Shown one piece after another: positions 51,371 to 53,749 of a stretch of 64,000 bases of DNA. Position numbers and translations under genes: made by a program. Within the stretch, counting starts at the first letter, position 1, and the number at the start of each line of letters is the position of its first letter. This stretch comes from Pseudomonadota bacterium. GTDB taxonomy: Bacteria > Pseudomonadota > Gammaproteobacteria > Burkholderiales > JACQAP01. The stretch lies in the NCBI GenBank assembly GCA_038040175.1, contig JBBPIT010000008.1, forward strand, positions 2,184 to 66,183. Reading direction: 5' to 3'. The notes under the pieces were generated by a model. The model did no database searches, was not told the origin of the DNA, and was given only the letters and a program-made list of their open reading frames with translations.

Positions 51371-52576
51371 TCATCTGTATACGTGCTCGCGGGTGAGCGG
51401 ATAAAGAACCGAGCCGTCGGCAAGAGGCTTGGCCCCGAGAATCTGGAAGATCGAAATCCAGCCGCGGTCGAACGCATGCGCCGACCCCGCCATGTAGATG
51501 CGCCAGGTGCGGAAGCGTTTTTCACCCACGATCCTGCGCGCCTCTTCCTGGCGCGCTTCCAGCCTGCTCACCCAGTGCCACAGCGTCTTCGCATAATGCG
51601 ACCGCAGGCACTCCGCGTCCCAGGCCTCCAGCCCCTGCTGCGACATTTCGCCCAGGACCCGCGAGATATGCACCAGCTCGCCGCCGGGAAATACGTATTC
51701 GTCGACGAAATCGCCGATGCCGCTGCCCAGCGCGCCGTCGTCGAGCGAATTGGTGGTGATGCCGTGGTTCATGACCATCCCACCCGGTTTGAGCAGCCGG
51801 TAAATCTTGCCGAAATACGCCGGCAGATTGCGTTTGCCCACGTGCTCGAACATGCCGACGCTCGCGATCTTGTCGTAAGGCTCGTCTTCCGGCACGTCGC
51901 GATAGTCCATCAGCCGCACTTCGCAGCGGCCTTCGAGTCCCAGCGCGCCGATGCGCTCGGTCGCATACGCCTGCTGCTCTTGCGAGAGCGTGATGCCGAG
52001 CGCCTTCACGCCATGATGCCGGGTCGCCCACAGGACCAGTCCGCCCCAGCCGCAGCCGATGTCGAGAAAGCGTTCGCCGGGCTTCAGATCGAGCTTGCGG
52101 CAGATGTGTTCGAGTTTCTGCTCCTGCGCGAGATCGAGCGAATCATCGGGTTTCCTGAAATAGGCGCAGGAGTAGACCCGATTCCTGTCGAGCCAGAGAC
52201 CGTAGAACTCGTTGCCCACGTCGTAGTGGTGCTGGATCGCCTTGCGGTCGGCGGGACGGGTGTGCCGCCACCATTTCCAGATGTCGGAGCGCCGGCGGTA
52301 GGCCCCGGCGTCGCCGGCCACCAGTTGCTCGCCGATACGCACCGACTTGCGAATGTCGCCGTCGAGATCGAGATCGCCCTCCACGTAACTCCTGGCGAGC
52401 TTGCCCAGACTGGGTTTGAGCAGCGACACCAGCGCCTGCGGCGAGCGCACGGTCAGGCGCAGTTCCGGGCTGTCACCGGACTGGATGGTCCTGCCGTTCC
52501 AGAGCGTAAGGCTCAGCGGCAGGCGGAGTCGCCTCAGGCGATCCTCAAGCATGCCGATCATGGGCGCTACCAGCAT
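51371..52576 (-). CDS. cfa: cyclopropane-fatty-acyl-phospholipid synthase family methyltransferase
   Basis: 401 aa with ...HYDVGNEFYGLWLD..RVYSCAYF...LDIGCGWGGL (SAM motif)...GMFEHVG... Confidence 0.85.
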   Translation of the reverse strand: MLVAPMIGMLEDRLRRLRLPLSLTLWNGRTIQSGDSPELRLTVRSPQALVSLLKPSLGKLARSYVEGDLDLDGDIRKSVRIGEQLVAGDAGAYRRRSDIWKWWRHTRPADRKAIQHHYDVGNEFYGLWLDRNRVYSCAYFRKPDDSLDLAQEQKLEHICRKLDLKPGERFLDIGCGWGGLVLWATRHHGVKALGITLSQEQQAYATERIGALGLEGRCEVRLMDYRDVPEDEPYDKIASVGMFEHVGKRNLPAYFGKIYRLLKPGGMVMNHGITTNSLDDGALGSGIGDFVDEYVFPGGELVHISRVLGEMSQQGLEAWDAECLRSHYAKTLWHWVSRLEARQEEARRIVGEKRFRTWRIYMAGSAHAFDRGWISIFQILGAKPLADGSVLYPLTREHVYR

Positions 52577-52649
52577 GGCATTCCTCGAAGCAGTCGGTTC
52601 AAAAAAAAGCGGCAGCCGGAAAGGTTGCCGTTATTGTACTTGCTGGCTA

Positions 52650-53152
52650 GTGTCCTGTTCCGCTGATTCGCGGCTGAAAACCCAGCGAGAATCGGCGCCA
52701 TGCTGTGTTACGAGTCCTCGCCGTGCGTGTCGGAGCGCGGAAGAGGGGCCCCTCTGGGGATCTGACCGCGGAGACACGCGTAAGGCCGGTGTCGACACGC
52801 TATTGGCCGGTTACACGGTCGCATCCCCGCAAGCGGGGCGGCTGTCGAGGCGGAGCAGGGGCCCCAACTTTATTTGGGGATGCGACCTGAGATCAGACGC
52901 ACAAGGGATCGCCCGCCGCCCTCGATCGCCTCCGAGGTCAGATCCCCAAACGGAAAACGTTCGGGGCCCCTCTTCCGCTCTCCGGCGATCCCTTCTCCAC
53001 GTTCCACCGGCCCCCGCCACTGTCAAGGACTCGCGCCTTGCCTGACGCCGATTTCGCGGGTTTTCCGATCGATGATGGATTGTTGCCGAATGGATATGAG
53101 GACTGCCTTCCGACGTTCGCCGGTCGTCCCACGAATCAGCGGAACAGGACAC
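52650..53152 (-). other. about 500-nt nested long hairpin (candidate structured RNA or foldback element)
   Basis: The 21-nt sequence GTGTCCTGTTCCGCTGATTCG (52650-52670) is perfectly complementary to 53132-53152. Five further collinear nested helices follow (details in findings). There is no credible ORF. The minus strand is suggested by the C-A (= G-U) mismatch bias. Confidence 0.6.
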
Positions 53153-53161
53153 TTGCCGAAC

Positions 53162-53749
53162 TTAAAAAACAAGGTCGTTGAGCAGCGAACTCCGCACCCC
53201 GGCGGCAACCGCGTCAACCGATGCCTTGTAGTTGGGATGGTCCACACCGGCGGAAAGGCCGGCCCCGTTCTTCAACGCCTGTTTCATCGGCGGCGTGAGT
53301 TCGAAACGCAGGAAATGCACTGACGAAGTCTTTTCCTCGTTCTCGCGATCCAGGTCTTCGTCGGCAATCGCGTACACCCGCGGATGACCCGCGATCCCGA
53401 TCGAGACGCGGTCCTCGATTCCGATCAATGTCGCCAGCGCGAGCGTGCGCTCCTCGACGTTGGGGTATTCGATCAGCATGGTGGCCTTCCAGTTGCTGCC
53501 GTCGGGAACCAGCGGGTTGTAGGTATCGAGCTCGTCGCGAATGCCCTCCTCCTCGAATATGCGCTCGACCCGCAACATCTCCTGGATCTGGTAGCGCATG
53601 GTGAGTTCGTCCTCGAACACCAGCGTGATGTGCTCGCCCAGTTGAACCGTCCGGTTTTTCTTGTGGGCCAGCACTTTGGCGCGGAAATCCTTGCGCGCCT
53701 TCGCGTACTGTTCGAGTGACATCAGGCTTTCGGCGGTAATGACAGCCAT
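53162..53749 (-). CDS. DUF3501 family protein
   Basis: 195 aa, ...SLEQYAKARKDFRAKVLAHKKNRTVQLGEHITLVFEDELTMRYQIQEMLRVERIF.., last gene of the rubrerythrin/Fe-S trio. Confidence 0.8.
   Translation of the reverse strand: MAVITAESLMSLEQYAKARKDFRAKVLAHKKNRTVQLGEHITLVFEDELTMRYQIQEMLRVERIFEEEGIRDELDTYNPLVPDGSNWKATMLIEYPNVEERTLALATLIGIEDRVSIGIAGHPRVYAIADEDLDRENEEKTSSVHFLRFELTPPMKQALKNGAGLSAGVDHPNYKASVDAVAAGVRSSLLNDLVF

What the first reader, a model, noticed from the sequence alone, without database searches (positions are those of the whole stretch)
52650..53152. About 500-nt nested long hairpin with 21-bp perfect closing arms; mismatches become G-U on the minus strand
The 585-bp gap between cfa (start 52576) and the DUF3501 gene (stop 53162) has no credible ORF. 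It folds on paper into one long imperfect hairpin made of these helices: 52650-52670 / 53132-53152 (21 bp, perfect); 52676-52697 / 53046-53065 (two 1-nt bulges); 52711-52720 / 53024-53033; 52733-52752 / 52963-52980; 52753-52767 / 52936-52950; 52817-52828 / 52876-52887 (apex about 52829-52875). All helices are collinear and nested, with asymmetric loops (for example, 53066-53131 is unpaired). The three non-Watson-Crick positions I found inside or extending helices (52671/53131, 52719/53025, 52754/52949) are all C opposite A on the + strand. They would be G-U wobbles in a minus-strand transcript, and both neighbouring genes are on the minus strand. That asymmetry is expected for selection on RNA structure, not on DNA. 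I recognise no known RNA family in it (not RNase P, tmRNA, SRP, 6S or a group II intron). Alternatives are a foldback MITE or a decayed IS with 21-bp terminal inverted repeats.
Basis: partly seen in the sequence, partly recalled or inferred. Interest (0 to 1): 0.65.

Follow-up and report, generated by a model that had tools for sequence, protein, structure and literature searches.

The report
IS630-derived fold-back MITE, not RNA gene
The 503-nt "long hairpin" between the DUF3501 gene and cfa is one copy of a multicopy, non-coding mobile element (a MITE) carrying the terminal repeats of an IS630-family insertion sequence; it is an ordinary kind of genomic parasite, not a new structured RNA gene.

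Summary
The hairpin is real: 21-bp perfect terminal arms, nested helices, and folding z-scores of -11.9 (minus strand) and -8.4 (plus). It is not a locus-specific RNA. The 21-mer occurs in 97 stretches of Burkholderiales genomes. In cultured isolates it is the right end of an IS630-family insertion sequence, and the transposase gene reads through it. In 16 uncultured-genome assemblies it bounds non-coding elements of about 219, 354 and 504 nt (up to 16 retrieved copies per assembly). These are flanked by TA duplications (35/42 left, 29/42 right).

A close relative (L098) has the same DUF3501-cfa junction empty, with a 79-nt spacer instead of 585. Five others carry long, short or remnant forms at the same site.

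A full tally gives 6 C·A, 4 G·T and 21 mismatches that pair on neither strand. Copies show no orientation bias relative to genes (11:8). Stem substitutions are strand-symmetric (32 vs 36).

A modest excess of strand-neutral compensatory changes suggests the palindrome itself is maintained.

Verdict: a new member of a known kind (IS630-derived MITE). Interest is low.

The parts
52650..53152 (.). Long-form (503 nt) copy of a non-autonomous IS630-derived MITE; a fold-back element with nested, collinear helices.
   Evidence: structure. (multicopy family; long copies L001, L012, L095 are 91.5-93.5 % identical over the full length). (empty orthologous site in L098).
52650..52670 (+). Left terminal inverted repeat, GTGTCCTGTTCCGCTGATTCG. 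It is identical to the IRR of the parent IS630-family IS.
53132..53152 (-). Right terminal inverted repeat, a perfect reverse complement of the left one. Both ends are IRR-type; the parent's IRL is GTGTCTTGTTCCGTTGTTAAC.
52648..52649 (.). TA, the left copy of the target-site duplication. The reconstructed target is GGC-TA-GCC, which contains CTAG.
   Evidence: IS630 target preference from PMC2170065.
53153..53154 (.). TT, a degenerate right copy of the TA duplication. It is TG in the orthologous copies L008, L047 and L069.
   Evidence: Imperfect duplications are documented for ISY100.
52726..53008 (.). Inner module (283 nt), absent from the ~219-nt short form. It contains its own inverted repeats (I2, I3, I7) and the hairpin apex. 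Identity between copies is over 90 %.
52840..52989 (.). Segment absent from the ~354-nt medium form (el 196-345).
53066..53131 (.). Asymmetric arm with no long-range partner. It is the most variable part of the family and diverges at about the third-codon-position rate between orthologous copies (12-18 %).
   Evidence: (helices 2-3 only 71-75 % paired).
52633..52638 (-). Context, not part of the element: a TACAAT box (TAnAAT conserved in orthologs) 9 nt downstream of the insertion TA. It is a putative -10 of a cfa promoter.
   Evidence: Conservation is shown; the promoter function is inferred.
52601..52631 (-). Context: a GC-rich hairpin (52609-52631) followed by T8 (52601-52608) on the minus strand. 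It is conserved, with covarying stems, in MITE-free orthologs. It is either the terminator of the DUF3501 operon or a leader hairpin of cfa.

Best explanation
[quoted passage not shown] It encodes nothing. It carries at both ends the 21-nt right terminal repeat of an IS630-family insertion sequence found in Burkholderia, Cupriavidus and Ralstonia.

Inferred mechanism: the IS630-type DDE transposase, supplied in trans, binds the two terminal repeats, excises the element and inserts it at a TA dinucleotide (preferably CTAG), duplicating the TA.

This copy landed in GGC-TA-GCC, 8 nt downstream of the DUF3501 stop codon. That is 9 nt upstream of a conserved TACAAT box and hairpin that precede cfa. 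The insertion happened in an ancestor shared with several uncultured Burkholderiales.

The long hairpin is a consequence of the element's palindromic (fold-back, IRR-IRR) architecture. It is not evidence of a dedicated RNA gene. Because the element lies inside the DUF3501-cfa transcription unit on the minus strand, it is probably transcribed passively and would then form the hairpin in RNA (inferred, not shown).
For: 1. Multicopy. The 21-mer hits 97 stretches of Burkholderiales genomes. Seventy loci from 16 MAG assemblies contain MITE interior sequence, with 16 loci in SMAG_U4605 and 12 in H1-B1 bin.59. These are lower bounds, because an exact 21-mer was required.
2. Parent IS.
- In isolates the 21-mer is the IRR of a ~1.16-kb IS (L062 3712-4868), flanked by TA in CTAG.
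- Its ORF has DDE_3 plus HTH_23/28/29/32 domains and passes NCBIfam NF033545 'IS630 family transposase' (200 bits, cutoff 100).
- An intact 363-aa ORF in B. multivorans reads through the IRR, ending ...RISGTGH, with its TAG stop supplied by the target.
3. TA duplication. 35/42 complete copies have TA on the left and 29/42 on the right.
4. Filled and empty sites.
- L098 (Cfa 94 %, DUF3501 88 % aa identity) has a 79-nt spacer with no element, against 585 nt in the window.
- Removing the element and one TA from the window leaves ~80 nt.
5. Not coding. One-nt indels separate copies, and three size classes delete most of the interior.
6. No RNA-strand signature. Orientation relative to genes is 11:8. 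Stem substitutions give 32 plus-wobble vs 36 minus-wobble states. There is no Rfam match.
7. The literature shows that IS630-family elements insert at and duplicate TA, preferring CTAG. It also shows that IS630-derived MITEs such as RUP exist and that bacterial MITE transcripts fold into long stem-loops.
Against: - This copy's duplication is imperfect (TA / TT).
- No transposase gene was found in the window or in the MITE-rich MAG loci fetched, apart from L093. A cognate autonomous partner in the same genome is therefore not shown.
- Mobility is inferred from comparative data, not observed.
- At 503 nt the element is larger than the bacterial MITEs reviewed in PMC2229807 (<200 bp).
- Paired regions evolve 2-4 times more slowly than third codon positions between orthologous copies.
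- Compensatory WC-to-WC double changes are in modest excess: 17 vs 10.8 ± 1.7, with 0 of 1000 shuffles reaching 17. Something beyond neutral decay acts on the fold-back.
Confidence: 0.93

Rival explanations
1. Exapted MITE. It is a MITE by origin, but this copy (or the family) now acts in cis on the DUF3501-cfa unit. One route is as an RNA hairpin in the read-through transcript: an RNase III target, stabiliser or insulator, as proposed for Correia/NEMIS elements. The other is at DNA level, by separating the old -35 region from the conserved TACAAT box and supplying a substitute (GGAACA-17-TACAAT).
For: - The insertion lies 9 nt upstream of a TAnAAT box conserved in distant orthologs and inside a co-oriented gene pair.
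- It has been retained in WIN, L099, L008 and L069, and as a remnant in L047, with cfa intact.
- Stems evolve more slowly than third codon positions, while the unpaired arm is neutral-like.
- There is an excess of compensatory doubles.
- There is a precedent for RNase III processing of MITE hairpins.
Against: - No promoter-like site passes even a lenient scan. The MITE-borne -35 matches only 3/6 (my own reading of the sequence).
- At this very site the element is tolerated as 503, 219 or ~61 nt, which argues against a requirement for the long hairpin.
- Slow stem evolution is equally explained by exchange between copies, which the size-class switching demonstrates.
- There are no expression data.
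Confidence: 0.12
2. A bona fide structured non-coding RNA gene or cis-regulatory leader on the minus strand, selected for RNA folding.
For: - The minus strand folds 18 kcal/mol better than the plus strand.
- It has 20 vs 9 G·U pairs in the respective MFE structures.
- The same element strand folds better in 32/42 copies.
Against: - The element is multicopy and mobile, with TA duplications and IS630 ends.
- It is absent from the orthologous site in L098.
- There is no Rfam match.
- There is no orientation bias relative to transcription (11:8).
- The full mismatch tally is 6-7 vs 4, with 21 mismatches unpairable on either strand.
- Substitutions in stems are strand-symmetric.
- Pairing in the alignment is no better than column shuffles (92.5 vs 92.4 %).
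- The strand asymmetry is inherited from the family founder, so it counts as about one observation.
Confidence: 0.03
3. A decayed full-length insertion sequence, that is, an internally deleted IS630 copy that still holds remnants of the transposase gene.
For: Both termini are identical to the IS IRR, which itself encodes the transposase C-terminus.
Against: - Only ~23 terminal nt are shared with the IS. No interior similarity of 40 nt or more to any IS-bearing locus was found.
- Both ends are IRR-type, not IRL + IRR.
- The same interior is shared by dozens of dispersed copies in three discrete size classes. It is therefore a propagating non-autonomous family and not a one-off deletion.
Confidence: 0.02

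Closest known systems
RUP (repeat unit of pneumococcus), the MITE proposed to be mobilised by IS630-Spn1 (Oggioni & Claverys 1999, as reviewed in PMC2229807)
   Same: Both are non-coding, multicopy and intergenic. Their terminal repeats match those of an IS630-family IS. Both insert at TA with a TA duplication and fold into a long stem-loop.
   Different: RUP is 107 bp with short TIRs (9 contiguous bp) and lives in a Gram-positive. This family is 219-505 nt with 21-nt perfect TIRs, occurs in Burkholderiales, has three nested size classes, and has both ends of IRR type.
Correia / NEMIS elements of Neisseria
   Same: Both occur in Betaproteobacteria and have TA at the termini and long TIRs (24-26 bp). 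Both have discrete length variants that differ by an internal segment (107 vs 155 bp). Both are often co-transcribed with neighbouring genes, giving a hairpin RNA, which in Neisseria is an RNase III substrate.
   Different: The review read here names no parent IS for Correia elements. Here the parent is identified. The present element is 2-5 times longer. RNase III processing and promoter effects are untested here.
IS630-family insertion sequences (IS630, ISY100); Tc1/mariner superfamily
   Same: The terminal repeat is identical to the IRR of Burkholderiales IS630-family elements. The TA/CTAG target and 2-bp duplication also match.
   Different: The window element has no transposase and shares no interior sequence with the IS. 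It is a non-autonomous derivative, not a member.
Stowaway MITEs of plants (Tc1/mariner-derived)
   Same: The logic is the same: short non-autonomous elements with mariner-type TIRs, a TA duplication and hairpin potential, cross-mobilised by a related transposase (reference; otherwise my own knowledge).
   Different: Stowaway elements are eukaryotic and unrelated in sequence.

Membership tests
MITE (non-autonomous derivative of an IS630-family IS) | Terminal inverted repeats matching those of an autonomous IS | tested here: met
   The 21/21-nt arms are identical to the IRR of IS630-family elements in Burkholderia, Cupriavidus and Ralstonia.
MITE (non-autonomous derivative of an IS630-family IS) | Multiple dispersed copies at unrelated loci | tested here: met
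   70 loci in 16 assemblies hold interior sequence; 42 complete copies were extracted. There is only one copy in the 64-kb window.
MITE (non-autonomous derivative of an IS630-family IS) | Target-site duplication of the parent's type (TA) | tested here: met
   In the family, TA is on the left in 35/42 copies and on the right in 29/42. This copy has TA / TT, one base degenerate.
MITE (non-autonomous derivative of an IS630-family IS) | Filled versus empty site at an orthologous locus | tested here: met
   L098 is empty (79-nt spacer). L099, L008, L069 and L047 are filled at the same TA.
MITE (non-autonomous derivative of an IS630-family IS) | Small size and no coding capacity | tested here: met
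   The element is 503 nt. Copies differ by frame-breaking 1-nt indels and large internal deletions. There is no nucleotide similarity of 40 nt or more to any IS-bearing locus beyond the termini. A direct translated search of the transposase against the element itself was not run.
MITE (non-autonomous derivative of an IS630-family IS) | Mobilisation in trans by the cognate transposase | not testable with these tools
   This needs a transposition assay. Only one MAG locus (L093) among those fetched carries the transposase.
IS630 family (autonomous IS) | Encodes a DDE transposase with N-terminal HTH domains | tested here: not met
   The window element has none. The parent elements do: Pfam DDE_3 + HTH, NCBIfam NF033545, and an intact 363-aa ORF.
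Structured non-coding RNA (Rfam family or novel RNA gene) | Match to a curated covariance model | tested here: not met
   Only sub-threshold plant miRNA-hairpin hits were found (24 bits against gathering scores of 137-168).
Structured non-coding RNA (Rfam family or novel RNA gene) | Strand-specific signature: G·U-preserving substitutions and a consistent orientation relative to transcription | tested here: not met
   Orientation is 11:8. Single-side stem changes give 32 plus-wobble vs 36 minus-wobble states. The mismatch tally is 6 vs 4, with 21 others.
Structured non-coding RNA (Rfam family or novel RNA gene) | Covariation supporting the helices | tested here: inconclusive
   - RNAalifold found 0 compensatory pairs.
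- Pairing is 92.5 vs 92.4 % in shuffles, and pairs with a change on both sides number 10 vs 6.6 (7/500).
- In the 51-copy alignment there are 17 vs 10.8 ± 1.7 compensatory states (0/1000).
- This is a modest, strand-neutral excess. It is compatible with maintenance of a DNA palindrome.
Correia/NEMIS-like RNase III-processed MITE hairpin | Co-transcription with flanking genes and RNase III cleavage of the stem | not testable with these tools
   The position inside a co-oriented gene pair makes co-transcription plausible. There are no expression data.

The most novel reading that the evidence does not exclude
The fold-back of this MITE family is actively maintained, not just inherited. Three observations point that way:
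- an excess of strand-neutral compensatory double substitutions;
- stems that evolve 2-4 times more slowly than third codon positions, while the unpaired arm drifts neutrally;
- templated switching between size classes at a fixed site.

In addition, the copy in the window may have been co-opted into the regulatory region of cfa. It sits between the old -35 region and a conserved -10 box, so cfa expression would now depend on the element, through a hybrid promoter or a processed read-through hairpin.
Probability: 0.12. Interest if true: 0.45.

Novelty: new member of a known kind. Interest (0 to 1): 0.18.

Why it matters
Mainly as a correction. A striking 500-nt hairpin in an intergenic region is a mobile-element copy, so it should be masked and not pursued as a novel RNA.

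Secondary value:
- It defines an undescribed IS630-derived MITE family in uncultured soil and groundwater Burkholderiales. I found no mention of the terminal sequence in the searchable literature.
- The family is unusually long, has three nested size classes, and often sits exactly on stop codons.
- There is evidence that copies exchange sequence with one another.
- The family breaks MAG assemblies: many hits lie at contig ends.
- It could serve as a strain marker or as a small model for palindrome maintenance.

Tried and rejected
- An exact-protein look-up of the window's DUF3501 protein in public assemblies found nothing.
- The Rfam scan at E<=10 gave only spurious miRNA-hairpin and sRNA hits.
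- The promoter scan found no sigma-70-like site in 52300-53400.
- RNAalifold on an alignment with partial copies fragmented the long-range helices and was uninformative for them. I replaced it with pair counting on the window copy's own MFE structure.
- I considered that the inner 283-nt module might be an independent second element nested in the short form. No copy of it was seen outside the MITE context in the fetched loci, and its boundaries do not coincide with its inverted repeats. The question is left open. I ran no further search on it, because hits would be swamped by MITE copies.
- Attempts to get a curated name for the parent IS failed. The PLSDB record of the GMI1000 megaplasmid is unannotated at the match, and 'ISRso5' does not occur in the paper library.
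- 'Decayed IS' was rejected for lack of any interior similarity.
- I considered re-insertion into the same TA as the cause of the size differences at the orthologous site. I judged it unlikely, because all occupied alleles share the same degenerate right-hand duplication.

Full report
**Observation**

The sequence is as described.
- The repeat finder recovers the terminal arms 52645-52673 / 53129-53157 (29 nt, 93 %), with a perfect 21-mer core. It also recovers the nested inner repeats I2, I3, I6 and I7.
- The 21-mer occurs only at these two places in the window; none is expected by chance.
- The 523-nt region folds to -296.1 kcal/mol on the minus strand (z = -11.9) and -277.5 on the plus strand (z = -8.4).
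- The neighbours are a CMAS-type cyclopropane-fatty-acid synthase (51371-52576, minus) and a DUF3501 protein (53162-53749, minus).
- Rfam gives nothing above noise.

**What it is**

A scan of one genome per bacterial species with the 21-mer returned 97 stretches, all but one labelled Burkholderiales, Betaproteobacteria or 'Gammaproteobacteria'. Many lie at contig ends. They fall into two groups.

Group 1: cultured Burkholderia, Cupriavidus and Ralstonia.
- The 21-mer is one end of a ~1.16-kb insertion sequence (for example L062 3712-4868), flanked by TA within CTAG.
- Its protein has DDE_3 and HTH_23/28/29/32 domains. It passes the curated NCBIfam model for IS630-family transposases (200 bits, cutoff 100).
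- In B. multivorans an intact 363-aa ORF reads through the repeat (...RISGTGH) and takes its TAG stop from the duplicated TA plus the next target base. This explains why the 21-mer is so conserved across genera.
- The other IS end differs (GTGTCTTGTTCCGTTGTTAAC), so the window element carries the IRR type at both ends.

Group 2: 16 metagenome-assembled genomes.
- The 21-mer bounds non-coding elements that share the window element's interior. There are 70 such loci, with up to 16 per assembly.
- They form three discrete size classes: ~504 nt (as in the window), ~354 nt (lacking window-equivalent 52840-52989) and ~219 nt (lacking 52726-53008).
- Of 42 complete copies, 35 have TA immediately to the left and 29 to the right. 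The window copy has TA / TT.
- IS630-family elements insert at TA, duplicate it and prefer CTAG. ISY100 gives occasional imperfect duplications in vitro (PMC2170065).

**History of this copy**

Three genome loci (L008, L069, L047) and two metagenome contigs (L098, L099) are orthologous to the window's cfa-DUF3501 region, with 90-96 % nucleotide identity in the genes.
- L098, the most divergent, has no element. Its spacer is 79 nt. The window minus the element and one TA gives ~80 nt and a GGC-TA-GCC target.
- L099 has the long form at the same site.
- L008 and L069 have the 219-nt form.
- L047 has a ~61-nt remnant whose junction lies in a 9-nt direct repeat, GAATCAGCG.
- All occupied alleles share the degenerate right-hand duplication (TG/TT). 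This indicates one old insertion, not repeated insertions.
- On the gene distances, WIN (long) is closest to L008 (short), then L069 (short), L047 (remnant) and L099 (long). The size class therefore changed at least twice at a fixed site, each time with exactly the junctions seen in dispersed copies. The simplest explanation is templated exchange (gene conversion) between copies. This is inferred.

**Testing the RNA hypothesis**

1. Mismatch tally. The full tally for the window copy is 157 Watson-Crick, 6 C·A, 4 G·T and 21 pairable on neither strand. MFE-based counts are 7 vs 3 G·U in long-range helices and 20 vs 9 overall.
2. Strand asymmetry. The energy asymmetry is a family trait: 32/42 copies, mean 7.4 kcal/mol. 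It is inherited from the founder.
3. Orientation. Using GC3-filtered ORFs as a crude gene call (validated on the window), copies lying between co-oriented genes have the window-plus strand transcribed in 11 cases and the window-minus strand in 8.
4. Covariation.
- RNAalifold found none, and its covariation term was a penalty of +3.48.
- With the window copy's MFE structure imposed on 15 long copies, 92.5 % of cells pair against 92.4 % in shuffles. The covariation score is 0.032 against 0.031.
5. Stem substitutions. Over 51 copies, single-sided stem changes are strand-symmetric: 32 plus-wobble, 36 minus-wobble and 59 non-pairing states.

So nothing indicates selection on the RNA of one strand.

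**What remains unexplained**

- Compensatory WC-to-WC doubles are modestly over-represented. There are 17 distinct states against 10.8 ± 1.7 in shuffles (0/1000) and 5-10 in slid registers. In the smaller set there are 10 pairs against 6.6 (7/500).
- Between orthologous copies the unpaired arm 53066-53131 diverges by 12-18 %. That is similar to or above third-codon-position divergence (7-15 %). The paired outer parts diverge by ~5 %, and the inner module (WIN vs L099) by 3.5 %.
- Both patterns are strand-neutral. They fit maintenance of a DNA palindrome by arm-to-arm template switching, or homogenisation between copies. Structural selection cannot be excluded.

**Local consequences (inferred)**

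- In MITE-free orthologs the spacer contains a conserved TAnAAT box, then a GC-rich hairpin with covarying stems, a T-run, a Shine-Dalgarno sequence and the cfa ATG.
- The element sits 9 nt upstream of that box and 8 nt downstream of the DUF3501 stop codon.
- If TACAAT is the cfa -10, the insertion split it from its -35 region. The element end offers only a 3/6 substitute (GGAACA-17-TACAAT), and no site passes the promoter scan.
- The element is tolerated there as 503, 219 or 61 nt. This argues against a strict functional requirement for the long hairpin.

**Comparison with known systems**

- The closest known system is RUP of S. pneumoniae, the IS630-Spn1-derived MITE.
- Correia/NEMIS elements share the TA ends, long TIRs, internal-segment length variants and hairpin transcripts (PMC2229807).
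- This family differs in its host clade, its length (219-505 nt, against <200 bp for the reviewed elements), its IRR-IRR ends and its three nested size classes.
- I found no prior description. The terminal 12-mer occurs in the library only as unrelated mammalian primers.

**Verdict**

It is a new member of a known kind of element, and interest is low.

Noticed in passing
window 52601-52638 (minus strand); L098 540-680, L100-L115 spacers: Upstream of cfa there is a TAnAAT box (TACAAT in 8 of 11 loci). It is followed by a GC-rich hairpin whose stems covary between orthologs, then a T-run, a Shine-Dalgarno sequence and the ATG. The arrangement is conserved down to ~70 % protein identity. It looks like a promoter -10 followed by a leader hairpin or attenuator, which may double as the DUF3501 operon terminator.
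   Followed up: partly
13 of 42 MITE copies, e.g. L012 562, L040 6406, L064 5791, L068 5141, L034 1220: In 14 of 84 flanks a long, high-GC3 open frame ends in a TAG stop built from the duplicated TA plus the element's terminal G. Insertion into the TA of a stop codon regenerates a stop. This probably explains why so many copies sit exactly at gene ends in these GC-rich genomes.
   Followed up: partly
L060 152-1243 (B. multivorans); also L057, L062: The parent IS630-family transposase ORF runs through its own right terminal repeat (...RISGTGH). Its stop codon lies outside the element, supplied by the target TA + G. The 21-nt repeat is therefore under protein-coding constraint.
   Followed up: yes
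L020 4714-4933 vs L076 2353-2704; window vs L008/L069/L099: Loci with identical flanks in different MAGs hold different size classes of the element (220 vs 352 nt; 503 vs 219 nt). The junctions are the same as in dispersed copies. This suggests gene conversion between copies, not independent deletions.
   Followed up: partly
L047 3726-3786: The orthologous copy is reduced to a ~61-nt remnant that keeps both termini. The deletion junction lies in a 9-nt direct repeat, GAATCAGCG, consistent with slippage across the hairpin.
   Followed up: yes
window 52731-52752 and 52963-52984: The inner inverted repeat contains CCTCTTCCGCT. This matches the terminal-repeat core CCTGTTCCGCT at 10/11 positions (D9 and I11), in the opposite orientation to the nearer terminus. 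It could be a relic of a composite or nested origin, or a second transposase-binding site.
   Followed up: no
window 53110-53127: The window copy has a cluster of private substitutions in the variable arm. They turn CAAC...GTTG (L008, orthologous copy) into CGAC...GTCG, a local compensatory change of the kind expected from quasi-palindrome template switching.
   Followed up: no
L069 (DASXQN010000065.1): This 3-kb contig is binned in an 'Anaerolineales' MAG. It is nevertheless 93-94 % identical to the window's cfa-DUF3501 locus and carries the Burkholderiales MITE, so it is almost certainly a mis-binned contig.
   Followed up: no
L062 3784-4868, L049, L028, L033 (Ralstonia, Cupriavidus): In these copies the transposase reading frame is interrupted: a ~279-292-aa ORF, with the C-terminus in other frames. 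The Burkholderia multivorans copy is intact (363 aa). These are either pseudogenes or frameshift-dependent expression.
   Followed up: no
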